A stretch of DNA of 35,160 nucleotides from contig JAISAN010000101.1 of assembly GCA_031266635.1 (NCBI GenBank), positions 1 through 35,160 on the forward strand, in the 5' to 3' direction. The position numbers were made by a program, and so were the translations under genes. This DNA is from Treponema sp. Lineage in GTDB: Bacteria; Spirochaetota; Spirochaetia; Treponematales; Breznakiellaceae. This document shows, one piece after another, positions 483 through 31,094 of this stretch; positions within the stretch are counted from its first letter, which is position 1, and each line of letters opens with the position of its first letter. A model generated the notes under the pieces. That model was not told the origin of the DNA and ran no database searches. It was given only the letters and a program-made list of their open reading frames with translations.

Positions 483-590
483 GCCTCCGGGCCGCCTTTT
501 TGGCTAAACCGCCATCCTTGGCGGTTTACCTTCACAAGCCTTCCGGCTTGCAAAGGCCGCCAAAAAGGTTCGAGTCCCGCTTGGGACGGG
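483..590 (+). repeat. RepA copy 1: 108-bp structured repeat (about 93 percent identical to 24476-24583, same orientation)
   Basis: Hand alignment to 24476-24583 gives 7 mismatches and no gaps. Predicted 10-bp closing stem 495-504/559-568, hairpins 506-527 and 535-550, then GGTTCGAGTCCCGC (T-loop-like) and hairpin 574-587. Confidence 0.8.
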
Positions 591-8296: not shown

Positions 8297-8330
8297 TTTT
8301 TCGCTCCACAAAAAGAATTATTTAGAATCT

Positions 8331-8450
8331 GAGGCTGTTCCAAAACTTCAGTTTTTGGAACAGCGACCTTAGATTTACATGGAAAAGGGGGTATTTGACC
8401 ACTTTTCCAAGAGGTTGTTTCAAAACCAACCGGGTTTTGGAACAACCTCA
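8331..8450 (+). repeat. BIME/REP-like composite repeat B1 (three hairpins, 16-bp terminal inverted repeats)
   Basis: Near-identical to 24794-24907. Hairpins 8334-8364 (12 bp) and 8411-8449 (16 bp, loop CAACCGG), plus a central GGAAAAG.../...CTTTTCC hairpin. The ends GAGGCTGTTCCAAAAC and GTTTTGGAACAACCTC are inverted (15/16). Confidence 0.85.
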
Positions 8451-8499
8451 TCTGTCCATAATGTAGACACTTTATGAAATCGGACCAATTTCCCAATCC

Positions 8500-12077: not shown

Positions 12078-15059
12078 TTAATCGCCGCTGCCGACGGCAT
12101 TTAATTGAGCCACCACCGCGGCGACGCCGCTCAGGTCGGCGGCAATCTTGGCCGCTTTGGTAAAGACGTACTTGTACAAGCCGGAATTCCGCATATTCCC
12201 GGCAAGCACGGTATTTATGTTGTCAAAGGCGCTTCGGCCGCTAAGCACACTGCCGTATGTACTGGTTGCGGCCTGCGCACCGTTGAGATAGGTCGTTATA
12301 TCATTACCGGACCGGACAATGGCGATATGGCACCAGGTGTTTAGCGCGGGCGTCCCCATACCGGTTCCCCGTCTTGCGGTCCCTTCGTACAGATTAAACT
12401 GCCACGCGTTGGTACTATTGTTGGGCTTTTCAATACGCAGAGAACCATCCGCATTTTTCCCCGTTGGGCCGTACATGACCAGGACATCCTTCGCTGTGCC
12501 TCCAACATCCCCCACCTTGTAGTACAGCTCGATAGTCCAGTCCGTTGCCGAGCGAATAAAGGCGCCGCTAAACGGATCCAGGGTAACAGTATTGTCGGCG
12601 GCCCCAAAATTAACCACGTTAAAGCCGTTGACTGTCCCAGCGCTGGTATCGGCGGAAAATTGAGACCCGATTGTTCCGATAGACACCGCGTTATTATACA
12701 GGGTTCCGATAAATTTGCCGTTGTCAACCTCGTAGCTGATGCTGGTCAGATTCCCGGCCGCCGTGGCGTCTACCGTCCATGTGGCGTACACCGTGACAGC
12801 CTCATCACTTATCGGGGAAGAATCGGTAAAAGGTGCCCCCGTACCGGCCGCGGCGGTGTTCCACCCCTGGAACGTATGGCCGCCCCGGGCGGGATTTACC
12901 GGCACTTCCACCGTCTGCCCCACCTTTCCCGGCACGACCTGGATAATGGCGCCGCCGGTCCACATGCCCCAGTTCCCATCGAAGGTAACGAGAGCGTCCA
13001 CCGCTTCGTCAATCCAGTGGGCGTACAGGGTGATGTCTCCGGTTATAACCGTTGACGGCTCGTACTTTATACCCACCGTGGCATCGGTATACCAGCCGTC
13101 GAAGTTCTTGGTCGCATGGGTAAGGTCGCTTAAACCGGGCCATTCCGCCGCGGCCACGGTTCCGCCCGCGCCGCCGATAGAGTTTACCGTAGCGGTTTTT
13201 GTGGTTCCACCGGAGATGAAAGTTCCGTCGTTGGCGTTAAAGGTAACGGTGAAGGTTTCGACCTGGTTTAGCTGGTTCACCACCGTGGTAACACCGGCGG
13301 CGCTAGGAATTATGGCGCTGCTATGGACCTTAAACTGGTAGAACTTGAGGTAATTCGCGCCGAAATAATTGTAGAACAGGGATTTGAAGTAATTGTTTGA
13401 AGCCAGCATACTGAAACTTGTCGTCCCGTCTTCTTTCAATTCGCCGTTCAGGTAAACGTCAATATTATCGCCGCTCTTGACATAGGCTATGTGGAACCAG
13501 CGGTTTGCGGCAAAAACGGGGGAACCGGCGGGGGAAGAAGAATTTAGCGCGGTCTGAGTACGGGTAGAACCGCTGTTACCGGTACGGACAATAAAATACC
13601 AGTTCGGATTTTCAACCCAGATACCGCCGTAATTCTTGTCGTTGTTGAGCCGGGCGAAATTCAGGGGGTTGGGATTGTTGCCCGTACCCGTCGCCAGGAC
13701 ATAAAACTCCACAGTCCAATCGGTTTTGGTCAACAAGGCTCCGGCCTGGGGGCCGAAGTTAAAGCGGTTGCCGTTGGAGACTTTGAGCGTATCGATGGTT
13801 TCAACAGCCGGACTTCCCGGTAACACCGCCCCGTTGGCGTCCACCGGGGGAACGGCAAAGGTCTCGTTATAGCTGCCGCCTGAAAGCGTACCCGCAACGG
13901 CGTCCCCCGCCCCGTTTACCGCGTAACTCACCGTGCTTATGCCCAGACTGTTGTCCCATTCCCACCGGGCGTAAACCGTAATGTCCTCCGTTACCGGTGT
14001 TAAGGTGGTAAGTTCCGTGCCCCAATTCTCCGTTCCGTCACTAGTGGAATCGGATTTTCCGGTATACCAGCCCGCGACCCTAAATCCTTTCAGGACCGGT
14101 ACGGGCAGGGCTCCCGTTTCCCCCACGGCGTGGCCGGTTTTTACTTCCACAATCCGGGTCTTTGCCCCATCGTCAAAAGCGCCGATGTGGGCGTCAAAGG
14201 TAACGTTGTAGCGCTGGATATATGCGCCCCAGCGGGCGTACAGAACGGTATCCGCCGTTATGACCGCCCCCTTGCCGACAAGTTCGCCGTCCTCAACCCC
14301 GGTGTACCAGCCGTCAAATTCACTGCCTGTTTTTTCGGGATCGGCGGGCCATTCGGAATCCGGCACTTTCCCGTCGCCGGGATAGGTTACGGTCGCCGTT
14401 TTGGCCGCTGTTGAGCCGCCGCTAAACTCCCCGCCGTTAGGGTTAAAGGTAACGGTGTAACTTATGGCCCCCCCGTTCCATCTGGCGTATACGGTCATAT
14501 CGCCGGTTACTTCCGTTTCGGTTGTAAAGGGCGCTTCCCAGAGATCTTTGTCGATATACCAGCCGATAAAAACATCGTTCGACTTGGCAGGATCCGAAGG
14601 AAACCGGTTTGCCGTTACCGTTTTATTGGGACTGGCTACGGTTACCTGCCTCGTATCGGCGTTGTTAATTTTACCGCCATTGGCATCGAAGGTAACGGTA
14701 AAAGACCAATTCCAGCGGGCGTAGATCGTTATATCCCGGCCTACCACCTGGGAAAAATCGTATTGGGTATTTCCCTCCGCGGTCGTGTACCAGCCAGAAA
14801 AGGTATAACCGCCGTCCCTTGCGGGTTCGGCAAGTTCACCCAGCGTCAGGACAGTACCGTTTTCTTTTACGATGCTTACGGTATTTTCACCGTCCTCAAA
14901 ATAGCCGCCCGAAGCATCCAGAATAATCGTAACCGTTTCAGAATTGTTGTTGAGATTTGGCGTAGTTAAGGGATTACAGCCGCCAAAAAACAGGGCGGCC
15001 ATCACCGCGAACATAAGTCCCGCCGGAAACAGGCGGTATATTTTGTTTTTCCGTTTCAT
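12078..15059 (-). CDS. Large surface lipoprotein: 4 Listeria-Bacteroides (InlB B-type) repeats + LamG, then 2 repeats + LamG
   Basis: 993 aa. Lipobox FFGG-C. Six units of the form [FY]TVTF[DN]xNGG...GW[YN]...[IV]T[ILV]YA[RHT]W. Two concanavalin/LamG-like modules (WTVEFYV...WFHIAYVKSGDNIDVYLNGE and WTIELYY...WCHIAIVRSGNDITTYLNGA). Confidence 0.75.
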   Translation of the reverse strand: MKRKNKIYRLFPAGLMFAVMAALFFGGCNPLTTPNLNNNSETVTIILDASGGYFEDGENTVSIVKENGTVLTLGELAEPARDGGYTFSGWYTTAEGNTQYDFSQVVGRDITIYARWNWSFTVTFDANGGKINNADTRQVTVASPNKTVTANRFPSDPAKSNDVFIGWYIDKDLWEAPFTTETEVTGDMTVYARWNGGAISYTVTFNPNGGEFSGGSTAAKTATVTYPGDGKVPDSEWPADPEKTGSEFDGWYTGVEDGELVGKGAVITADTVLYARWGAYIQRYNVTFDAHIGAFDDGAKTRIVEVKTGHAVGETGALPVPVLKGFRVAGWYTGKSDSTSDGTENWGTELTTLTPVTEDITVYARWEWDNSLGISTVSYAVNGAGDAVAGTLSGGSYNETFAVPPVDANGAVLPGSPAVETIDTLKVSNGNRFNFGPQAGALLTKTDWTVEFYVLATGTGNNPNPLNFARLNNDKNYGGIWVENPNWYFIVRTGNSGSTRTQTALNSSSPAGSPVFAANRWFHIAYVKSGDNIDVYLNGELKEDGTTSFSMLASNNYFKSLFYNYFGANYLKFYQFKVHSSAIIPSAAGVTTVVNQLNQVETFTVTFNANDGTFISGGTTKTATVNSIGGAGGTVAAAEWPGLSDLTHATKNFDGWYTDATVGIKYEPSTVITGDITLYAHWIDEAVDALVTFDGNWGMWTGGAIIQVVPGKVGQTVEVPVNPARGGHTFQGWNTAAAGTGAPFTDSSPISDEAVTVYATWTVDATAAGNLTSISYEVDNGKFIGTLYNNAVSIGTIGSQFSADTSAGTVNGFNVVNFGAADNTVTLDPFSGAFIRSATDWTIELYYKVGDVGGTAKDVLVMYGPTGKNADGSLRIEKPNNSTNAWQFNLYEGTARRGTGMGTPALNTWCHIAIVRSGNDITTYLNGAQAATSTYGSVLSGRSAFDNINTVLAGNMRNSGLYKYVFTKAAKIAADLSGVAAVVAQLNAVGSGD

Positions 15060-15074
15060 AAAAACATCTCCTGT

Positions 15075-15173
15075 AAGGCGCGTTCAAAACTCCGGTTTTA
15101 AGCGCGCCTTCTGTTTAAAGTTCCAGTGGCAGTCGTTCGGAAACTTCAAACCAATGGTTTGCGGTTTCCGAAC
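15075..15173. repeat. Palindromic-unit pair B5 (divergent member of the REP/BIME-like family)
   Basis: Hairpin 15075-15110 (AAGGCGCG..TTCAAAAC-TCCG-GTTTTAA..GCGCGCCTT) and hairpin 15135-15173 (GTTCGGAAAC / GTTTCCGAAC enclosing CAAACCA-A-TGGTTTG). It lies in the 118-nt gap between two minus-strand genes. Confidence 0.6.
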
Positions 15174-15177
15174 AACG

Positions 15178-15612
15178 CTAAGGTTGATTTACCGTGAGGG
15201 CAAGCCGTTCACTTTCGGCCCGGTCCCGTTCGGTAACCGATACATAATAGGTAAGGGAATCAAGGTTGTTGGCGGCGCTGGTCAACATCAGTTTGGAAGA
15301 AGGCTCGCCGGTCCCCGCGCTGAGGGTCTTTTGGTAAGTCACAAAAATACCGTCCAGTGTTTTGCCGCCGGTATCCGTGTCATAGACCTTCCAGATACTG
15401 CCGGCGGGGTGTATACTGGTGAGGGTAAAGGTAACGGACTTTTGTACCGCCGATGTTTTGACCACCGTGGCTGCCGCAGCCGTTGGCGCGGCGGAGGGAT
15501 CAATTTCGGGCGCTTCACCCGGACAGCCGGCAAAAAGACCCGCGAAAAAAAGCAGGGCCGGCAGCAAAAAGGCAAGACGGTTCGTCCGCCGTTCCGTTAA
15601 AAACAAATTCAT
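15178..15612 (-). CDS. Small lipoprotein consisting of a single Ig-like domain homologous to the N-terminus of the 10357..11958 lyase-fold protein
   Basis: 144 aa. Lipobox LFAG-C. KSVTFTLTS...WKVYDT...LTYYVSVTERDRAESERLALTV aligns with ESVSFTLTG...WKVYTT...RTYYVSVTGTGKTESKRLALTV. Confidence 0.6.
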   Translation of the reverse strand: MNLFLTERRTNRLAFLLPALLFFAGLFAGCPGEAPEIDPSAAPTAAAATVVKTSAVQKSVTFTLTSIHPAGSIWKVYDTDTGGKTLDGIFVTYQKTLSAGTGEPSSKLMLTSAANNLDSLTYYVSVTERDRAESERLALTVNQP

Positions 15613-15615
15613 ATA

Positions 15616-17112
15616 TTACTCTCCGTTTAATGCGTTTACGATTGCTGAAACACCCGCGAAATCGGCCTCTGTTTTGATGCCTTTGGTAAAGGTTATCTGA
15701 TAAAGCTTCGCATTGTTCAGCGCGGTGGTGAACAGGCAGTGGGTTACGGACTTAAACGCGGCGTTACTAAAGGCAGGACAGTTTCTGTCCTGCATAAACT
15801 CGCCGTTCAAGTAGGTTTTTAACGCTCCGCCATTTCTGGCAATGGCCATGTGATACCACCGGTTACGGCTCCCCGTGGAGGAAAGCCCAAAGTCAGGCCG
15901 GTCACCCGTATTGGGCCGGTAAATCCAGAGGCCGTGACCTTCCATCCAGAAAGCGCCGTCGTTTTCGGCGCCTGTGCCGTAAAACCGGATAGCCTTCGCC
16001 GCTCCGGCGGCCACGGTGTCCCCCAAATTGATGTACAGTTCGATGGTCCACTCGTTTTCGGCCAGATATGAACCTCCCATCTGACCGATGTCCAGCGTAC
16101 CGGTAGTGGTATTGGCAGGGAATTCCAGTACCCGGTAAGCATTGATCGTACCGGTGCTAGTGCCGGTATTATCTATGGGACGGATGATGCCGCCGTTTGG
16201 TATGGTTCCCACAAATTCGCCGTCTTCATTAACGCCATAGGTGATAGTATCAATGGCGGAATAGGTCCACTTGGCGAATACCTCTTTATCCCTGGTTATC
16301 CGGGTATCTTTGTCAAAGGCCACGTTATCCGCGGTAAACCAGCCTTCCAGCGGGAAGTCCGCCATTGCGGGGGTTTCGGGCCAGGATCCCGCTTCCTCAA
16401 GCGTAGTCGCCGCGGGGGCGTTTATCTTAACTTCCTTGCGTAATTCCGCCGGTCCCCAGCCGCCGCCGTTGGCGTTAAAGGTAACGGCAAACTCCTGGGG
16501 GCCGCTATACCAGTAGGCGTAAGACTGGGCTCCGTTTTCAGACAGGTTAAGGCCGGTAACCGGCGTCGTATTACCGAGCTCTTTGGCATAATCAGGCGTG
16601 CCCCCCGGCATTTCGGTAAACCAGCCGCCAAAAGCGTTATTGCCACTTGCCGGAAACGGCATATTGGATATTGTCCACGGCGGCCTTTTTACATTAACCG
16701 TAAAGATTTCGCCGCTGCCGTTTATGGTCCCGCCGTTGGGATTAAAAACAACGCGGTAATCTTTCGATGGATCGGCCCCGTTGCCCCAATAGGCGTAGAG
16801 GGCAAGATCCCGGTTGACCTCCCAGGGCGGTTCAAACAGATCACCTTCTTCCGCACGGTCATACCAGCCCCGGAATTGATATCCGGAGTAGTATGGTTCA
16901 GGTAATTCCTCGAGCAATTCTCCCGCATACATATTCAGCTTCATGCTGTAGGTTGGTTTTGAACTTTCCGTGGTCTGTTCCGCGGCGGTGTCAAAAGTTA
17001 TGATATGGGTCTTCGCAGTTTCTCCTCCCAGATCGCAGCCCGGCAGAATCACAAATGCCAGCGGCAAAAGTACCGTGACCACCGTTATCGCCTTTGTAAA
17101 AAATCGTTTCAT
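15616..17112 (-). CDS. Surface lipoprotein: 3 Listeria-Bacteroides repeats + C-terminal LamG domain (paralog of the 993-aa protein)
   Basis: 498 aa. Lipobox ILPG-C. Repeats end LALYAYW / SYAYW / VFAKW. LamG module WTIELYINLGD...WYHMAIARNGGALKTYLNGE. C-terminal tail matches those of the 993-aa protein modules. Confidence 0.75.
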   Translation of the reverse strand: MKRFFTKAITVVTVLLPLAFVILPGCDLGGETAKTHIITFDTAAEQTTESSKPTYSMKLNMYAGELLEELPEPYYSGYQFRGWYDRAEEGDLFEPPWEVNRDLALYAYWGNGADPSKDYRVVFNPNGGTINGSGEIFTVNVKRPPWTISNMPFPASGNNAFGGWFTEMPGGTPDYAKELGNTTPVTGLNLSENGAQSYAYWYSGPQEFAVTFNANGGGWGPAELRKEVKINAPAATTLEEAGSWPETPAMADFPLEGWFTADNVAFDKDTRITRDKEVFAKWTYSAIDTITYGVNEDGEFVGTIPNGGIIRPIDNTGTSTGTINAYRVLEFPANTTTGTLDIGQMGGSYLAENEWTIELYINLGDTVAAGAAKAIRFYGTGAENDGAFWMEGHGLWIYRPNTGDRPDFGLSSTGSRNRWYHMAIARNGGALKTYLNGEFMQDRNCPAFSNAAFKSVTHCLFTTALNNAKLYQITFTKGIKTEADFAGVSAIVNALNGE

Positions 17113-20944: not shown

Positions 20945-20984
20945 GTTCGAATTTTAACACTCCCGGGAGCGTTAAAATTCGAAC
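20945..20984. repeat. Perfect 14-bp-stem palindromic unit B6 (GTTCGAATTTTAAC / GTTAAAATTCGAAC)
   Basis: Arms 20945-20958 and 20971-20984 are exact reverse complements, with an inner CTC/GAG extension. It lies in the gap after the SBP2 stop. On the minus strand it is followed by a T-rich stretch. Confidence 0.7.
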
Positions 20985-20998
20985 CAGAGAGGGGACCT

Positions 20999-22642
20999 TT
21001 AACTGTCCAGATAATCCTGAACCTGGCGGACGATTGCATCCTTGACTTTGGCAAGCCCGGCGGCTTCCATTTGACGGTTCATTTCCCGGAGGATCGCGGC
21101 GGGGTCTTCGTAGGCTCCACATAACAGGGCGTTATGGTACTTTTTTAATATGACCCGGATATTTGCCAGCTCGCTGATAATTTCCCGGTCATCGAGGACA
21201 AAATCTGAAACCGGTATACGGGTAAAGGCATCGGGGGCATACTGATATTCAAACAGGCTTCTCACGTCCTCAGGCAGCCCCGCGGGAATACGGATAAAAC
21301 GGGGGTTCCAGGTTAATTCATAGCCGGGGAACAGATACCGATCCGCCTCGGAAAGCAGGGGATTCGGAACCGGTGTGGATGAATCATCCGCCATATTCCA
21401 GTGAACACCCCTGATACCGTATGAAAACAAATCGTTATGTTCCCGGGATTCAAAAACCCAATTCAAAAATTCAAAAACCTTTTCCGTTTTAGAGGAATTC
21501 CGGGGAACGCATAAATAATTCCACGCCCGGAACGACAGGGCGATGCTTCCCTTTTCCCGGTTCCTGGCGGCCTCAATGTACGGCCAGAAAGCGATCGACG
21601 CCTGGGGCAGATGGGTTTTCAGGGTATTTTGCCACCGGCTGAATTCGCTGACCGCTCCTTCTCCGGCGGCGGCAAAACCATTAAAAAACAGGGGACCCGC
21701 CTGTTCCCGCATCACCGAATCTTCGCTCACATAGACGTTCCACTTTGCCGCCTCCAGAAAATAACGGTTGAAACCCTCAAAGGTATTATATGGGTTGGGA
21801 TAGGCCGTATAGGAGTCTTCGGGATCGCCGTAGGCCGATACGCCGGTTACCCGCTTCCCATCGGACGAAAGTCCCACAAAAAACAGTTCCCTGACGCCGC
21901 CAATGATGCCTTCTATTGGGTAAATACCTTTCGCCGCCATGTCCCAGGTTGCGTCAAACATCATATAAAAACCCCGGTTGTTTTGTATGGATATGGGAAT
22001 CATACCTTTTTCTTCCCGCAATATGGTTTCAAAAAAAAAGCGGAGATCATCGTAGCTTTGTATCGTAATGCCGTAGGCGTCGGCCAGGTCTTTCCGGTAA
22101 TAGATACCGGGAATATCCAGCGGCGCGTTCATAATGGGGATGCCATAGATACCGCCGAAAAAATGGTTGCTGTCAAGAAAGGCGGGAGGAAAGGCTGAGC
22201 GGAGGCTCGAAAGGGCAGGATTGTCAAAATAACCGCTCAGTTCCTTGTAAACATTTTTTTGTATCAGAGAATTCAGATTCATCCAGGGTGCGTTAAAAAC
22301 CAGATCCGCTTCGGTACCGGTACTGGCAATCAAGGCTATCCGTTCCAGGTAGTCATCCCGGAGCATGGTATGAATCCGGATATCGATATTCAGCGTTTCC
22401 CTGGTTTGTTGTTCAAATTCCGCTATCACCTGATCCACATTCCGGTAGGTTTCATTGGAAGCGAACATATATATATTGATAACCGTTGCCTCCCCACCGG
22501 ATTGAAGGGGACTTTTTCCGCCGCATGAAAACAGGTGGAGAAAAAGGGCGCAAAACGCCGCAGCCGGAACCCACGCCGCCGGAAGGGGAATCCGCTTTGC
22601 GAAACGTAATTTATGTGACATTTTCCGCATTATGTTTTCCAT
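20999..22642 (-). CDS. Large extracellular solute-binding lipoprotein (SBP2), paralog of SBP1
   Basis: Start is uncertain (ATGs at 22669, 22663, 22642, 22630, 22621). All choices overlap the 3-prime end of the regulator gene. Lipobox HLFS-C. DUF3502-like C-terminus (VKDAIVRQVQDYLDS). Confidence 0.8.
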   Translation of the reverse strand: MENIMRKMSHKLRFAKRIPLPAAWVPAAAFCALFLHLFSCGGKSPLQSGGEATVINIYMFASNETYRNVDQVIAEFEQQTRETLNIDIRIHTMLRDDYLERIALIASTGTEADLVFNAPWMNLNSLIQKNVYKELSGYFDNPALSSLRSAFPPAFLDSNHFFGGIYGIPIMNAPLDIPGIYYRKDLADAYGITIQSYDDLRFFFETILREEKGMIPISIQNNRGFYMMFDATWDMAAKGIYPIEGIIGGVRELFFVGLSSDGKRVTGVSAYGDPEDSYTAYPNPYNTFEGFNRYFLEAAKWNVYVSEDSVMREQAGPLFFNGFAAAGEGAVSEFSRWQNTLKTHLPQASIAFWPYIEAARNREKGSIALSFRAWNYLCVPRNSSKTEKVFEFLNWVFESREHNDLFSYGIRGVHWNMADDSSTPVPNPLLSEADRYLFPGYELTWNPRFIRIPAGLPEDVRSLFEYQYAPDAFTRIPVSDFVLDDREIISELANIRVILKKYHNALLCGAYEDPAAILREMNRQMEAAGLAKVKDAIVRQVQDYLDS

Positions 22643-24197
22643 AATTATCACTACTCCCTCCATCGCCATATTTTTTACGGTACATTTCAGCGGTCAGCCC
22701 GGTAGACTGCTTAAAAATCACATAAAAATGTTTGGCGTTGAGAAAACCGGCCCGTTCCACGATTTCATGGACATGCATATTCGTCTCGACCAGCATCTTT
22801 TTAACATATTCCAGCCTCGTATCGGTCAGGTATTTGGAAAGGGATATGCCCTTGACGGCCTTAAAAATGGCCCGCAGATAATTGGGGGACAGGCCGATAT
22901 GTTCGGCAATCGTTTCTATGCTTATAGTGCCGTTTGAAAAATTACGGTTAATATAATCGGCGGCCATTTGTACCCATTCGTTTTTTCGGGTTTCAGAAAC
23001 CGCCACCGCCCTGGCCTTCATTTCGGCAAAACGTTCAATACCGGATTCGAGTTTTTGTACGGTCGATACAAGGTCAAGATATTCATGCCGCAGGTCATCG
23101 TAGACCTTCATGGAAAGGTTCAGATCTTTTTGGTTTTTTATATCATTGACGGTCCGCATGAGATCATACAGCGGGGTATACATATACTTGGATAGAAAAA
23201 AGGATATAACCAGGCTGGCCAGCATAAACAGAACGCTGATAACCGTCATAACGGTTTGTATTCTGTTGAAATTGGCGAGCAGCTCCGCTTTATTGCCAAG
23301 GCCGATAAACACCCAGCCCAGAGACGGGGATTTTTTATAGGTAACGAGGTAATCCGTTACCCCCCCCCCCCCTCCCCCCCGTCCGGGGTGGTACGTAAAG
23401 GAATCGTTCGCAAGTCCTGAACCGGTAATCATGCGGTACAGCTCATCTTCACACAGGTTTTTGTTTATCATGTCCGGATCGGAATCGCTGATAATAACGC
23501 CATTCCGGTCAATCACCAGGGTTGCATGTCCTTTGTCAAACAGGGGACCTTCGATTAACTTTTGAAAATACCCCTGATCAATATTGACAATAAATGCCGG
23601 CGTGCTCATACCGCGGTTCAGGCCAAAAAAAACGCTGATCCAGTTTTCATCTACCGTAAACGCTCCGTAGGTATCGGTAAACTTGACCTTTCTGGACAAA
23701 AAAACCGGCTTTTCATTTTGATCTTCCACCATCAGTACCGCATCACGATCAAACATTTCCGCCCGTCCGGCAATGCCGGCGGCGCCGTTAAAGCAGTAAA
23801 AAAAGGCGTCCTCGCCGGGGTTGTAAATGTACAGGGAACGGACCAGCCTGTTGCTTTTCACTTCCTCTCGCAGCCGCGCAAAGATCATCATATAGTCATC
23901 GGATTTTCGTAAAGCCTCGCCGTACATGGCTTTTATTATCACGTCATCGCTTGAATACACCTGAAACAAACGGTTATAGAGCGACTCAAAGAGCAGTTCG
24001 GTGATGCTGTAAGACTGTTCCATGTATTGCCGCGATTTTTCTTCGATTTCCTGTATATACTGCCCCTTGATTATCCCCATAATCAGACCGGATACCAGAA
24101 ACATAACAAAAGCGCCGACCACAAAAAACAGCAACATCGTGCGGAAAATGAGGGAATTCTTTTTAATATACTGAAACGCCCGGGCAACAAACGGCAT
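22611..24197 (-). CDS. Membrane-anchored AraC-family one-component regulator (TM - extracytoplasmic Cache-like sensor - TM - HTH)
   Basis: Start set to ATG 24197 (MPFVARAFQYIKK...). The GTG-extended ORF to 24281 reads through repeat B3. Two hydrophobic segments (LLFFVVGAFVMFLVSGLIMGII and VMTVISVLFMLASLVISFFL). C-terminal AraC HTH (IETIAEHIGLSPNYLRAIFK...KHFYVIFKQSTGLTAEMYRKKY). Confidence 0.8.
   Translation of the reverse strand: MPFVARAFQYIKKNSLIFRTMLLFFVVGAFVMFLVSGLIMGIIKGQYIQEIEEKSRQYMEQSYSITELLFESLYNRLFQVYSSDDVIIKAMYGEALRKSDDYMMIFARLREEVKSNRLVRSLYIYNPGEDAFFYCFNGAAGIAGRAEMFDRDAVLMVEDQNEKPVFLSRKVKFTDTYGAFTVDENWISVFFGLNRGMSTPAFIVNIDQGYFQKLIEGPLFDKGHATLVIDRNGVIISDSDPDMINKNLCEDELYRMITGSGLANDSFTYHPGRGGGGGGVTDYLVTYKKSPSLGWVFIGLGNKAELLANFNRIQTVMTVISVLFMLASLVISFFLSKYMYTPLYDLMRTVNDIKNQKDLNLSMKVYDDLRHEYLDLVSTVQKLESGIERFAEMKARAVAVSETRKNEWVQMAADYINRNFSNGTISIETIAEHIGLSPNYLRAIFKAVKGISLSKYLTDTRLEYVKKMLVETNMHVHEIVERAGFLNAKHFYVIFKQSTGLTAEMYRKKYGDGGSSDNYGKHNAENVT
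23360..23380 (-). repeat. Homopolymer tract inside the regulator CDS: C13-T-C7 on plus strand (G7-A-G13 on coding strand)
   Basis: Read directly: 23360-23372 are all C, 23373 is T, 23374-23380 are all C. It encodes the R-G-G-G-G-G-G stretch (PGRGGGGGGV) in the predicted sensor domain. Confidence 0.95.
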
Positions 24198-24228
24198 AAG
24201 TCCCCATCCGAAAATTTTTCTTACACTA

Positions 24229-24334
24229 GACTTGTTCGACAACCCGGTTGGTTGTCTCACAAGTCTTACAAAATGCCTCACATTTTGCGGTTTTCAGCGG
24301 AAGTTGTTCGGAAACTTGAGGTTTCCGAACAGCT
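24229..24334 (-). repeat. BIME/REP-like composite repeat B3 (inverted orientation, divergent stems)
   Basis: Three hairpins in the same order as B1/B2 when read on the minus strand. 24229-24265 has loop CCGGTTG, 24268-24286 is CAAAATG/CATTTTG, and 24302-24334 has GTTCGGAAAC/GTTTCCGAAC arms. Confidence 0.75.
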
Positions 24335-24339
24335 CTACT

Positions 24340-24348: not shown

Positions 24349-24430
24349 CATAAAAAGAATTTAACGGCTTTTTACGTGGTAATTTTGAGGATTTTTTCAA
24401 AACCCGGTTGTTTTTGCATGTCAAATTTTA

Positions 24431-24447
24431 TGAGAGACGCGGGACTC
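24431..24447 (-). repeat. 17-bp direct repeat of the 3-prime end of tRNA-Arg (att-like)
   Basis: TGAGAGACGCGGGACTC at 24431-24447 is identical to 24637-24653, which covers the discriminator, the 3-prime acceptor strand and part of the T-stem of the tRNA on the minus strand. Confidence 0.9.
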
Positions 24448-24475: not shown

Positions 24476-24583
24476 GCCTCCGGGCCGCCTTTTTGGCTAA
24501 ACCGCCATCCCTGGCGCTTTACCTCCACAAGCCTCCCGGCTTGTGAAGGCCGCCAAAAAGGTTCGAGTCCCGCTTTGGACGGG
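24476..24583 (+). repeat. RepA copy 2
   Basis: 108 bp, 7 mismatches to 483-590, same orientation. It lies between the 17-bp att-like repeat and the tRNA-Arg gene. Confidence 0.8.
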
Positions 24584-24636: not shown

Positions 24637-24710
<74 letters not shown>

Positions 24711-24793
24711 TGTAACCTTTATACCATAACTGAATAACTCAAAGCTGTCAACCGCCCGCCCGCAATGTCTCATTATAAAAATCTTACCTAAAT

Positions 24794-24907
24794 GAGGCTG
24801 TTCCAAAACTTCAGTTTTTGGAACAGCAACCTTGCATGGAAAAGCGGGCATTTGACCGCTTTTCCAAGAGGTTGTTTCAAAACCAACCGGGTTTTGGAAC
24901 AACCTCA
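24794..24907 (+). repeat. BIME/REP-like composite repeat B2
   Basis: Aligns with 8331-8450 apart from a 6-nt deletion and a few substitutions, including a compensatory change in the central hairpin (GGAAAAGCGG/CCGCTTTTCC). Confidence 0.85.
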
Positions 24908-25018
24908 AATTACACCGGTTCCTGCCCGCATTACGTCAATCGGGGATTTTGCCCCGGTCCGGACAACAAGAATTGGCGAAGGAGGGAAAATTCGCTATTC
25001 TTCAAATCAGGAGAATAT

Positions 25019-25633: not shown

Positions 25634-25677
25634 GCGTTTCTGAAAAACCCAGGCGGATTTTCAGAAACGCATATTTT
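25634..25677 (+). terminator. 13-bp hairpin after maf (GCGTTTCTGAAAA / TTTTCAGAAACGC) followed by ATATTTT: possible terminator and solo palindromic unit
   Basis: Arms 25634-25646 and 25658-25670 are exact complements. The arm sequence is the B4 palindromic unit (GTTCAGAAAC/GTTTCTGAAC) in flipped order. Confidence 0.5.
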
Positions 25678-29782: not shown

Positions 29783-30964
29783 ATGAAAAAAAGAATTGCC
29801 CTGCTGGGGGCTACCGGCTCTATCGGAAAAAGTACGCTGGATGTGATCCGCCGGGGAAAAGATGATTTTGAAGTTGTTCTCCTCTCAAGCCACACCGGCG
29901 CGGCGGCCCTGCGGGAACTGGGGAAGGAATTCCCCGGCGCGCGTCTGGCCCTTTCCGGCGGAGCGGCGGCGGAGGGCGTTTCTTTTCCCGGTCCCGGCGG
30001 ACTTCTGCGGGCCATAGCCGAAACAGGGGCGGACATTACGGTGAACGGCGTCTCCGGCGCCGCGGGGCTTCTGCCCTCACTGGCGGCGATTGACGCCGGT
30101 TCGGATCTGGCCCTGGCAAACAAGGAAACGATAGTTATGGCGGGCCCCCTGGTTTTTGATCGGGCCCGGGAAAAAAAGGTAAAAATCCTGCCGGTGGATT
30201 CGGAACATTCGGCGATCTTTCACCTTGTCGAGGCCCACGGGGCGGAGGGGGTGGAGGAAATTCTCCTTACCGCTTCCGGGGGGCCGTTCAGGAAATTGTC
30301 CCGGGAACAGATGGCGGCGGTTAGCGCCAAAGACGCATTGGCCCACCCCACCTGGAATATGGGGCCCAAAATTACCGTTGATTCCGCCTCCCTGGCGAAC
30401 AAGGGCCTTGAGGTGATCGAGGCGGTACGGCTTTTTGGCATGGCGCCGGAAAAGATCAGCGTCCTTATTCACCCCCAGAGCGTGGTTCATTCCATGGTAC
30501 GGATGAAAGACGGGGCGGTTTACGCCCAGCTTTCCCGGCCCGACATGCGGCTTCCCATCCACGAAGCCCTGTACTGGCCGGAAACGCGGCCTTCGCCCTT
30601 TGGGAAGCTCGATTTCCGGGGGCTCTCCCTGGATTTTGAAGCCCCTGACACGGAACGGTTTCCCATGCTGGGTTTGGCTTATATGGCAATCCGGCGGGGG
30701 GGCGTCTATCCCTGCGTATACAACGCGGCCAATGAGGAGGCGGCGGCGGCTTTTCTGGAGGGCCGCGCCGGATTCCTTGATATACCCCGGATTGTTGAGT
30801 ATGTTTTAACCAGAGATTTTATGCCGCCAGGTTTCGGGTCTTCGGAACCGGATATTTTAAAAGAAAAACCTGGCGATCTTGCAAACATTCTGGCCGCCGA
30901 CGGGGAAGCCCGGAAATTGGCCGGAGAATTTATATTAGAGTTGTTCAGAAACTTCAGTTTCTGA
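29783..30964 (+). CDS. dxr: 1-deoxy-D-xylulose 5-phosphate reductoisomerase
   Basis: LLGATGSIGKSTLDV, LANKETIV, PVDSEHSAIF and HPTWNMGPKITVDSA motifs. The last 8 codons and the stop lie inside repeat B4. Confidence 0.95.
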   Translation: MKKRIALLGATGSIGKSTLDVIRRGKDDFEVVLLSSHTGAAALRELGKEFPGARLALSGGAAAEGVSFPGPGGLLRAIAETGADITVNGVSGAAGLLPSLAAIDAGSDLALANKETIVMAGPLVFDRAREKKVKILPVDSEHSAIFHLVEAHGAEGVEEILLTASGGPFRKLSREQMAAVSAKDALAHPTWNMGPKITVDSASLANKGLEVIEAVRLFGMAPEKISVLIHPQSVVHSMVRMKDGAVYAQLSRPDMRLPIHEALYWPETRPSPFGKLDFRGLSLDFEAPDTERFPMLGLAYMAIRRGGVYPCVYNAANEEAAAAFLEGRAGFLDIPRIVEYVLTRDFMPPGFGSSEPDILKEKPGDLANILAADGEARKLAGEFILELFRNFSF

Positions 30965-31063
30965 ACAACAACCATTAAAAAACAGCAAAATGTGGAACAT
31001 TTTGCCGAGACTTGCAAGCTAACCGCAGGTTAGCAGATAACCAACCGGGTTATTGAACAAGTC
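30938..31063 (+). repeat. BIME/REP-like composite repeat B4 (divergent, with an extra inserted hairpin)
   Basis: Hairpin GTTGTTCAGAAAC-TTCA-GTTTCTGAACAAC, hairpin CAAAATG-TGGAA-CATTTTG, then GACTTG...ATAAC-CAACCGG-GTTATTGAACAAGTC. The reverse complement aligns with B3 (24229-24334). Confidence 0.7.
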
Positions 31064-31094
31064 CATTATCCTTAGTAAAAAGAGAGGCGGAATA

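What the first reader, a model, noticed from the sequence alone, without database searches (positions are those of the whole stretch)
8331..8450. REP/BIME-like family of palindromic units with co-varying stems and a conserved CCAACCGGGTT loop
**Copies seen**
- Composite copies: 8331-8450, 24794-24907, 24229-24334 (inverted) and 30938-31063.
- Simpler members: 15075-15173, 20945-20984, 25634-25670 and a degenerate solo unit near 24397-24416.

**Shared architecture**
- Every unit is a GTTC-nn-AAAC / GTTT-nn-GAAC type hairpin.
- The variable core differs between copies: CCAAAA, CGGAAA, CAGAAA, CGAATTTTAA.
- Both arms always change together, so pairing is preserved.
- The loop 11-mer CCAACCGGGTT is exact at 8426-8436, 24883-24893, 31041-51 and, as the reverse complement, 24241-51.
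- Composite copies carry 16-bp terminal inverted repeats.

**Placement**
- All copies lie in intergenic gaps, mostly between co-directional genes.
- This resembles enterobacterial REP/BIME elements, which act in mRNA stabilisation, punctuation and protein binding. I do not recognise the sequence family.
Basis: seen in the sequence. Interest (0 to 1): 0.65.

Follow-up and report, generated by a model that had tools for sequence, protein, structure and literature searches.

The report
Hairpin-ended mobile repeats in termite spirochetes
The palindromic repeats are real, but they are miniature non-coding transposons (MITEs) that have multiplied enormously in termite-gut Treponema, not REP/BIME elements: a known kind of element in a family that seems undescribed.

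Summary
The four composite copies, their three-hairpin fold, the co-varying stems and the exact CCAACCGGGTT loop are all confirmed.

- **Extent:** the family goes far beyond this window. A collection scan found over 116 loci, nearly all in termite-gut Treponema/Spirochaetaceae MAGs. In the source metagenome the modules reach about 1,000-4,000 times the depth of the flanking DNA.
- **Mobility:** each copy has terminal inverted repeats and a target-site duplication. This is 4 bp for subfamily 1 (GAGGCTGTTCC...GGAACAAsCTC) and 3 bp, mostly ANT, for subfamily 2 (AGAGTTGTTC...GAACAAGTCY).
- **Empty sites:** two precise empty sites were found. One MAG carries seven identical copies at seven different sites.
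- **Placement:** copies are intergenic (87% against 15% expected) and show no orientation bias.
- **Verdict:** this is a MITE family, not REP/RAYT and not a strand-specific RNA.
- **Unusual point:** each end is a self-contained hairpin (TTGTTC-NNN-AAC arms around a conserved loop). Complementarity within a hairpin is kept better than identity between the two termini.
- **Open:** no parent transposase was found. There is no match at Rfam gathering scores, none in the plasmid or viral collections, and none in the literature searched.

The parts
8331..8449 (+). Copy A, subfamily 1 composite MITE (119 bp). H1 is 8334-8364, H2 is 8380-8409, and H3 is 8411-8449 with loop CCAACCGGG.
   Evidence: nhmmer E=4e-35. 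Contig loose ends at 8330/8450 mark the boundaries.
8327..8330 (.). Left copy of the 4-bp target-site duplication ATCT of A. The right copy is at 8450-8453.
   Evidence: direct reading. Family-wide 4-mer statistics.
8450..8453 (.). Right copy of the ATCT duplication of A.
24794..24906 (+). Copy B, subfamily 1 composite MITE (113 bp). It is flanked by AAAT at 24790-24793 and 24907-24910.
   Evidence: E=5e-34. Loose ends at 24793/24794.
24228..24336 (-). Copy C, subfamily 2 composite MITE (109 bp). It is flanked by ACT at 24225-24227 and 24337-24339. It is absent from the related strain in run X2.
   Evidence: E=2e-29. The X2 contig joins 24219 to 24337, leaving a single ACT.
30937..31064 (+). 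Copy D, subfamily 2 composite MITE (128 bp) with an extra nested hairpin (GCTAACCGCAGGTTAGC) in the 5' arm of H3. It is flanked by ATT at 30934-30936 and 31065-31067. It provides the last 9 codons and the TGA (30962-30964) of the dxr reading frame.
   Evidence: E=1e-26
15131..15180 (-). Solo H1-type hairpin unit (GTTCGGAAAC...GTTTCCGAAC) with a small hairpin inserted in its loop. It is a diverged, lower-copy relative.
   Evidence: nhmmer E=0.008 to H1 of subfamily 2. About 20-fold excess depth and about 30 contigs with unrelated flanks.
24392..24438 (-). Decayed remnant of an H3-type unit (ACAACCGGGTT, one mismatch to the loop).
   Evidence: I7/I8; E=0.009. No excess depth.

Best explanation
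These are non-autonomous DNA transposons (MITEs) of a large, modular superfamily confined, as far as seen, to termite-gut Treponema and other Spirochaetaceae.

**Anatomy**
- A full element is about 105-130 bp, and up to about 170 bp with nested modules.
- It has two hairpin end-modules. Each is made of the arm TTGTTC-NNN-AAC and its complement around a conserved loop: C-TTCA-G in H1 and CC-AACCG-GG in H3.
- The outer arms are the terminal inverted repeats.
- A variable central hairpin, H2, lies between the end-modules.

**Proposed mechanism**
- A transposase supplied in trans recognises the outer termini. Its identity is inferred, not found.
- It inserts the element at AT-rich A(N)T or A(NN)T targets with a 3- or 4-bp staggered cut, which gives the flanking duplication.
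- Short forms of 38-39 bp (left terminus + loop + right terminus) are either deletion products or minimal mobile units.

**Shown:** repetition, boundaries, inverted termini, duplications, presence/absence polymorphism, a recent burst in one genome, intergenic placement, and lack of orientation bias.

**Inferred:** the enzyme. My recall-based guess is an IS5/PIF-Harbinger-like DDE transposase, from GAG-type ends, the CTTGTTC motif and 3-4 bp duplications. The reason hairpin complementarity is maintained is also inferred.
For: **Extent and abundance**
- The collection scan with CCAACCGGGTTNTNGAACAA gave over 116 loci. Of these, 113 are Treponema, Spirochaetaceae or Spirochaetia from termite guts, and many matches lie at contig ends.
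- Summed contig depth over the modules is 72,000-223,000 against about 58 in the flanks in run X1, with over 1,500 contigs laid.

**Target-site duplication**
- In subfamily 2, 57 of 75 flanking 3-mers are identical, against 27.6 +/- 3.4 (maximum 39) with shuffled partners. The middle base agrees in 64 of 75.
- In subfamily 1, 8 of 15 parsed flanking 4-mers are identical. The two window copies were mis-parsed; read directly they also match, giving 10 of 15, against 1.35 expected.
- Further cases come from metagenome contigs.

**Mobility**
- Empty site 1: an X2 contig lacks C exactly and keeps one ACT.
- Empty site 2: L080:584-716 is orthologous to the filled L007 site and runs through the junction.
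- Seven identical 110-nt copies lie on seven contigs of MAG Cc175_bin63, with different flanks and duplications.

**Placement and homology**
- 80 of 92 copies are intergenic, against 15% under random placement. Orientation relative to co-directional genes is 14 same and 17 opposite.
- The two subfamilies are homologous (cross-hits with E of 1e-9 to 1e-11).
Against: - No autonomous partner was found. No transposase ORF bracketed by these termini occurs in about 880 kb of related loci.
- Within a hairpin the variable NNN matches its partner arm in 98% (H1) and 90% (H3) of positions. The two outer termini of the same element agree at only 52%. Double-stranded recognition of inverted termini does not by itself explain this.
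- The loops are conserved across both subfamilies. This hints at recognition of a folded form, or at some other constraint.
- The loop conservation is partly ascertained, because my collection scans required the loop.
Confidence: 0.85

Rival explanations
1. REP/BIME-type elements. These would be extragenic palindromes spread by a RAYT (Y1 HUH) transposase acting on single-stranded hairpins, with host roles in mRNA stability or protein binding.
For: - Units are about 38-nt imperfect palindromes arranged as two units plus a linker, they are extragenic, and they are very numerous.
- Hairpin complementarity is preserved better than identity between termini. Loops are conserved and stems co-vary. 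These features suit recognition in a folded single strand.
Against: - Flanking duplications of 3-4 bp that co-vary in the direct sense.
- Precise empty sites that retain one copy of the duplicated bases.
- As I recall them, RAYT/IS200-IS605-type mechanisms make no duplication.
- No conserved GTAG-like head sequence is present.
- No Y1 transposase gene was seen next to units in the loci examined. That search was not exhaustive.
Confidence: 0.05
2. A structured RNA family, either cis-regulatory or a small RNA, comparable to the TD-1/TD-2 motifs of Treponema denticola. The hairpins would act in the transcript.
For: - Covariation and modular stems.
- A weak partial match of copy D (minus strand) to Rfam TD-1, 21.5 bits, E=0.12.
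- Modules are present in contigs of a termite-gut metatranscriptome.
- TD-1/TD-2 were themselves described as multi-copy motifs with modular stems and overlapping reverse complements (PMC1950547).
Against: - The TD-1 score is far below the gathering score of 64.5, and no TD-1 or TD-2 hit appears in eight other loci. Nothing reaches Rfam gathering level.
- Copies lie in both orientations relative to neighbouring genes, without bias.
- Duplications and empty sites show insertion as DNA.
- The H1 loop occurs in both orientations (TTCA and TGAA).
Confidence: 0.04
3. Host-selected DNA or RNA signals, such as intrinsic terminators or binding sites for a nucleoid or recombination protein, that merely look repeated.
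For: - In subfamily 2, H2 read on the element's minus strand is a hairpin followed by a T-run. At least five non-homologous stem versions keep this form.
- The arms have a bipartite TTGTTC-N3-AAC form, like a protein half-site.
Against: - H1 and H3 are A/T-rich stems without a U-tract. No terminator-like site was called in A, B or C.
- Gene 3' ends face the terminator side no more often than the other side (19 against 24, p=0.54).
- Identical copies, duplications and insertion polymorphism show spread by transposition, not independent evolution of signals.
Confidence: 0.05

Closest known systems
Bacterial MITEs such as Correia/NEMIS elements of Neisseria and ERIC/IRU of enterobacteria (from my own knowledge)
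   Same: Elements of about 100-150 bp, non-coding, with terminal inverted repeats and short target-site duplications. They are intergenic, present in hundreds of copies, form long hairpins when transcribed, and exist in full and internally deleted forms.
   Different: - Each end here is itself a complete hairpin, so the inverted terminus is present twice per end, with a conserved loop.
- The duplication is 3 or 4 bp at A(N)nT rather than TA.
- Small hairpin modules are nested at fixed points.
- There is no sequence similarity, and no partner transposase is known.
REP / BIME elements with RAYT transposases
   Same: Palindromic units of about 35-40 nt, a mosaic of two units plus a linker, extragenic location, high copy number, and stems that co-vary.
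   Different: Flanking target-site duplications and exact empty sites are present here. There is no GTAG-type head, and no RAYT gene was seen. Whole composites move as units with inverted termini.
TD-1 / TD-2 RNA motifs of Treponema denticola (Rfam RF03155; PMC1950547)
   Same: Multi-copy, spirochete-specific motifs with covariation and modular or variable-length stems. Some overlap each other's reverse complements. Their function is unknown. There is a weak local resemblance (GUUAUCUGC, and a UUC-GAAA-UGA-UUUC hairpin).
   Different: The score is 21.5 bits against a gathering score of 64.5, and only for copy D. Other copies give nothing. This is not a member. Whether TD-1/TD-2 are themselves MITEs was not tested.
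Tourist-type MITEs and IS5/PIF-Harbinger transposons (recalled, not tested)
   Same: Termini of the form G(A/G)(G/C)CTTGTTC..., a 3-bp (or, in IS5-group elements, 4-bp) duplication at a short palindromic A/T-rich target, and GAG-type ends.
   Different: The target here is ANT/ANNT. As I recall it, the target of those elements is TWA/TNA/YTAR. No IS5-family transposase with these ends was found, so the link is only a lead.
Census of 'cMITEs' in prokaryotes (PMC11602168)
   Same: It reports that Spirochaetes genomes (Leptospira, Sediminispirochaeta, Treponema) are unusually rich in MITEs, at about 145 per genome, mostly intergenic.
   Different: It is a bulk census. The held text does not describe this family, its hairpin-module anatomy or its termite-gut distribution. 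The supplementary lists could not be read.

Membership tests
MITE (non-autonomous class II transposon) | Short, no coding capacity for a transposase | tested here: met
   Elements are 109-128 bp in the window and 38-170 bp in the family. They consist entirely of hairpins.
MITE (non-autonomous class II transposon) | Terminal inverted repeats | tested here: met
   A and B match at 16 of 17 positions (TGAGGCTGTTCCAAAAC / TGAGGTTGTTCCAAAAC). Subfamily 2 has AGAGTTGTTC against RGACTTGTTC.
MITE (non-autonomous class II transposon) | Target-site duplication flanking each copy | tested here: met
   57 of 75 identical 3-mers against 27.6 expected. The parse gave 8 of 15 identical 4-mers; with the two mis-parsed window copies read directly it is 10 of 15, against 1.35 expected. 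Informative non-consensus cases are GAT/GAT and AAA/AAA.
MITE (non-autonomous class II transposon) | Presence/absence polymorphism with exact empty sites; many dispersed, near-identical copies | tested here: met
   Empty sites in X2 and L080. Seven identical copies at seven sites in one MAG.
MITE (non-autonomous class II transposon) | A cognate autonomous element with the same termini | tested here: inconclusive
   None was found in about 880 kb of loci. No complete genome of a carrier could be scanned.
REP/BIME-RAYT | Insertion without target-site duplication (single-strand HUH mechanism) | tested here: not met
   Duplications of 3-4 bp are present.
REP/BIME-RAYT | A RAYT (Y1 transposase) gene flanked by inverted units in the same genome | tested here: inconclusive
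   ORFs next to units in the loci are ordinary genes. A genome-wide search was not possible.
REP/BIME-RAYT | Extragenic imperfect palindromes of about 20-40 nt in high copy number | tested here: met
Rfam TD-1 (RF03155) and any other Rfam family | Score at or above the family's gathering threshold | tested here: not met
   Only tRNA-Arg passes in the window. TD-1 scores 21.5 against 64.5 bits. No TD hit in eight other loci.
Intrinsic (Rho-independent) terminator | G+C-rich stem followed by a U-tract, placed downstream of genes in the sense orientation | tested here: not met
   H1 and H3 have no U-tract. Only H2 of subfamily 2 fits, on the minus strand. No orientation preference towards gene ends.
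IS5 / PIF-Harbinger-derived MITE (Tourist-like) | Termini and duplication matching those of an IS5-superfamily transposase-bearing element | not testable with these tools
   The resemblance is recalled only. No ISfinder-type library was available and no parent element was found.

The most novel reading that the evidence does not exclude
The end-modules may be recognised as folded hairpins or cruciforms, not as ordinary double-stranded inverted repeats. On this reading the 38-39-bp hairpin, not the composite, is the true mobile unit, moved by an uncharacterised enzyme that reads a hairpin loop yet makes a 3-4-bp staggered cut.

This would combine two things. One is REP/IS200-like substrate recognition: invariant loops, arms complementary within a hairpin at 90-98% against 52% between termini, and loop flipping. 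The other is DDE-like duplication. I know of no described bacterial transposon family with that combination.
Probability: 0.12. Interest if true: 0.7.

Novelty: new member of a known kind. Interest (0 to 1): 0.4.

Why it matters
- **Assembly and annotation:** termite-gut treponemes are a dominant, mostly uncultured symbiont group. A repeat that reaches thousands of genome-equivalents in their metagenomes breaks assemblies, since many MAG contigs end inside it. It also creates false ORF starts and ends.
- **Altered genes:** the element rewrites gene ends. Examples are the dxr C-terminus here and both ends of a TPR gene in L021.
- **Strain marker:** insertions differ between near-identical strains, so the family gives a ready marker for strain-level variation.
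- **Practical use:** a model of the family would improve binning, scaffolding and annotation of these genomes.
- **Mechanism:** the hairpin-module anatomy gives a clean case for asking why MITE ends are kept as perfect hairpins.

Tried and rejected
**Search for the autonomous partner**
- I looked for pairs of termini 0.5-3 kb apart, with and without matching duplications, that enclose ORFs. The enclosed ORFs are a DNA methyltransferase, a ROK kinase, MnmE, an ABC ATPase, a TPR protein, a nitroreductase-like protein and an exonuclease. These were read from the translations.
- A list of 'orphan' termini was too noisy to use.
- I looked for multi-copy ORFs among the loci. The clusters look like MCPs, kinases, ABC components and similar genes, not transposases.

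**Known-family and database checks**
- Rfam at gathering level and in permissive mode gave only sub-threshold hits (TD-1, ctRNA_pT181, mir-548 and similar), which I reject as chance or generic hairpin likeness.
- The plasmid collection gave no match. Viral contigs gave no match.
- Literature searches for the loop sequence, and for MITEs in termite Treponema, found nothing specific.

**Readings considered and set aside**
- A terminator reading was rejected for H1 and H3 and is not supported by orientation statistics for H2.
- I considered a 1-bp duplication with T...A as the element ends. I rejected it because non-consensus flanks (GAT/GAT, AAA/AAA) are duplicated in full.
- I considered Xer/dif-like sites, but the central region is 9 nt rather than 6, and I did not pursue it.

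Full report
**Observation**

Refined limits are A 8331-8449 (+), B 24794-24906 (+), C 24228-24336 (-) and D 30937-31064 (+). The 11-mer CCAACCGGGTT is exact four times against 0.07 expected. As single-stranded DNA each copy folds into three hairpins (H1, H2, H3), with z-scores of -6.6 to -11.7 against shuffles.

The window is ordinary chromosome. It holds a polysaccharide-utilisation cluster on the minus strand, an AraC regulator and tRNA-Arg(CCG). On the plus strand it holds maf, rpsB (Pfam), a run of ORFs I did not scan but read by gene order as tsf-pyrH-frr-uppS-cdsA, then dxr and an M50/PDZ protease (rseP-like). It comes from a termite-gut metagenome.

**The family outside the window**

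One scan of the species-representative genome collection used CCAACCGGGTTNTNGAACAA, which fits all four copies.
- 113 loci are Treponema, Spirochaetaceae or Spirochaetia from termite-gut MAG and single-cell projects.
- Two are hairpin-less chance matches (L036, L060).
- One is a genuine copy on a 3.5-kb contig binned as Tannerellaceae (L087).
- Many matches lie within 100 nt of a contig end, which is the signature of an assembly-breaking repeat.

Contigs of the source metagenome give a flank depth of about 58. Summed depth is 222,898 over H1 and 71,859 over H3 of copy A, with over 1,500 contigs laid. Figures for B, C and D are similar. Runs that hold the element are termite-gut metagenomes from several studies, one 'gut metagenome' and a few runs whose organism is coded. 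An exact 22-mer of subfamily 1 occurs in only 17 contigs of the large JGI/ENA metagenome collection. It occurs in no viral contig and no plasmid.

**Anatomy**

There are two homologous subfamilies, with nhmmer cross-hits of E 1e-9 to 1e-11.
- Subfamily 1 (A, B) runs GAGGCTGTTCC...GGAACAA(G/C)CTC.
- Subfamily 2 (C, D) runs AGAGTTGTTC...GAACAAGTC(C/T).

All four hairpin arms of an element share one format, TTGTTC-NNN-AAC. H1 closes on C-TTCA-G and H3 on CC-AACCG-GG. Between them lies a spacer and a variable hairpin, H2.

Lengths cluster at 105-110 nt. Short forms of 38-39 nt consist of the left terminus, the H3 loop (or sometimes the H1 loop) and the right terminus. Long forms reach 170 nt and carry extra small hairpins nested at fixed points.

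**Covariation**

On 23 distinct subfamily-2 copies, 97.7% of cells pair. Seven pairs and 41 cells change on both sides, and 0 of 500 shuffles reach this. Slid controls pair 33-47%. The caveat is that copies are related by descent.

**Mobility**

The bases flanking each copy are duplicated in the direct sense.
- Subfamily 2 has 57 of 75 identical 3-mers, against 27.6 +/- 3.4 with shuffled partners. They are mostly AAT or ATT but also AGT, ACT, GAT and AAA.
- Subfamily 1 has 4-mers such as ATCT (A), AAAT (B), ATTT, AGGT, AATA and ACAT. The parse gave 8 of 15; with the two mis-parsed window copies read directly it is 10 of 15, against 1.35 expected.

Two exact empty sites were found.
- A 9,986-nt contig of a roughly 97%-identical strain in run X2 joins 24219 to 24337. 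This removes copy C and leaves a single ACT.
- L080:584-716 is the 73%-identical orthologue of the filled site in L007. It runs through the junction with one trinucleotide.

Seven identical 110-nt copies lie on seven contigs of one MAG (Cc175_bin63), with different flanks and duplications. This indicates a recent burst.

**Placement**

Of 92 copies with both ends defined, 80 are intergenic, against 15% under random placement. Orientation relative to co-directional neighbours is 14 same and 17 opposite. Gene 3' ends face the H1 side 24 times and the H3 side 19 times.

**Interpretation**

Inverted termini, duplications, empty sites, identical dispersed copies and orientation-blind intergenic placement define a MITE.
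- The REP/RAYT reading fails on the duplication.
- A strand-specific RNA reading fails on orientation.
- Rfam gives nothing at gathering level. The best sub-threshold hit is copy D against TD-1 of Treponema denticola, 21.5 against 64.5 bits, and it is not repeated in other copies.
- TD-1/TD-2 were described as multi-copy motifs with modular stems and unknown function (PMC1950547). They may be an analogous family, but this element is not a member.
- A census paper notes that spirochete genomes are MITE-rich (PMC11602168). Nothing I could read describes this family.

**What is unusual**

Within a hairpin the variable NNN agrees with its partner arm at 98% (H1) and 90% (H3) of positions. The two outer termini of the same element agree at only 52%. 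The loops are conserved across subfamilies whose stems differ. The H1 loop is found flipped (TGAA for TTCA) in some copies.

So what is preserved is hairpin complementarity, beyond what a pair of inverted termini needs. Possible reasons are selection on a folded DNA or RNA form, arm-to-arm correction in palindromes, or each hairpin being a mini-element in its own right. I cannot separate these.

In subfamily 2, H2 read on the minus strand is terminator-like in several non-homologous versions. This fits a remnant of a parent gene's terminator, because there is no orientation preference.

**Limits**

- The transposase was not found in about 880 kb of related sequence.
- My suggestion of an IS5/PIF-like enzyme rests on recalled resemblance only.
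- Loop conservation is partly ascertained by the search patterns. Against this, contigs laid at 85% likeness or more show no variant at 10% or more in the H1 or H3 loops.

**Members wrongly included**

15075-15106, 20945-20984 and 25634-25670 have no family similarity. The first two have no excess depth. They are unrelated hairpins.

Noticed in passing
window 483-590 and 24476-24583 (also 24431-24447; tRNA-Arg 24637-24710): A second repeat of 108 nt at 94% identity (D4). One copy lies about 50 nt from the 3' end of tRNA-Arg(CCG). It is followed at 24431-24447 by a 16-nt duplicate of that tRNA's 3' end (GAGAGACGCGGGACTC), like a tiny att-flanked insert. It contains a T-arm-like GGTTCGAGTCCCGC, folds strongly (z about -6 on either strand), and has about 3-4-fold excess depth. 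There is no Rfam match.
   Followed up: partly
window 30937-30964; L021:5970-7268: Elements rewrite gene ends. The dxr frame ends ...ILELFRNFSF* inside copy D. Removing D and one ATT would restore an ORF ending ...SLVKREAE* with TAATG overlapping the next gene's start. This is inference from the sequence. In L021 a TPR protein takes both its first residues (..LRLFQNFSFWNS..) and its last (..ELFENFSF*) from elements.
   Followed up: partly
window 30983-31007 (-); subfamily 2 copies in L001-L116: H2 of subfamily 2 is a hairpin plus T-run on the element's minus strand. At least five unrelated stem sequences keep this form. Copies are not oriented towards gene ends.
   Followed up: yes
window 31009-31031; 15145-15163; L133, L119, L007, L100: Very small hairpin modules (GCTAACCGCAGGTTAGC, CGGACTAAAGTCCG, CGAACC-TTCG-GGTTCG and similar) are nested at fixed points: the 5' arm of H3, the H1 loop, and H2. 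They recur in many elements and also occur outside them. About a third of copies replace TTCG in the H3 5' arm by TGAG, which gives tandem G.A mismatches.
   Followed up: no
L082, L116, L048, L034, L110 (H1 loop): The H1 loop occurs in both orientations (CTTCAG and CTGAAG/CTGAGG) on otherwise identical stems. This implies inversion of the whole palindromic unit.
   Followed up: no
window 8315-8486 and 24747-24934 compared with run X2: The related strain in X2 has 157 unaligned letters in place of the 172 nt around copy A. It also lacks 188 nt spanning copy B and some flank, with 5 nt of microhomology. So both sites are polymorphic, but not as clean empty sites.
   Followed up: no
window 20945-20984: A perfect 14-bp stem with a palindromic CTCCCGGGAG core lies just downstream of the solute-binding-protein gene 20999-22669 (-). 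It is unique (no excess depth), and the X1 contigs break there. It is probably that gene's terminator.
   Followed up: partly
L087 (JAIRRS010000035.1): A complete subfamily-2 copy sits on a 3.5-kb contig binned as Tannerellaceae. This is either mis-binning or transfer outside the spirochetes.
   Followed up: no
window 12078-17112 (-): Periodic repeats of about 250 nt (D1/D3) are the Listeria-Bacteroides repeat (Flg_new) domains of two large surface proteins in the polysaccharide cluster. They are ordinary.
   Followed up: yes
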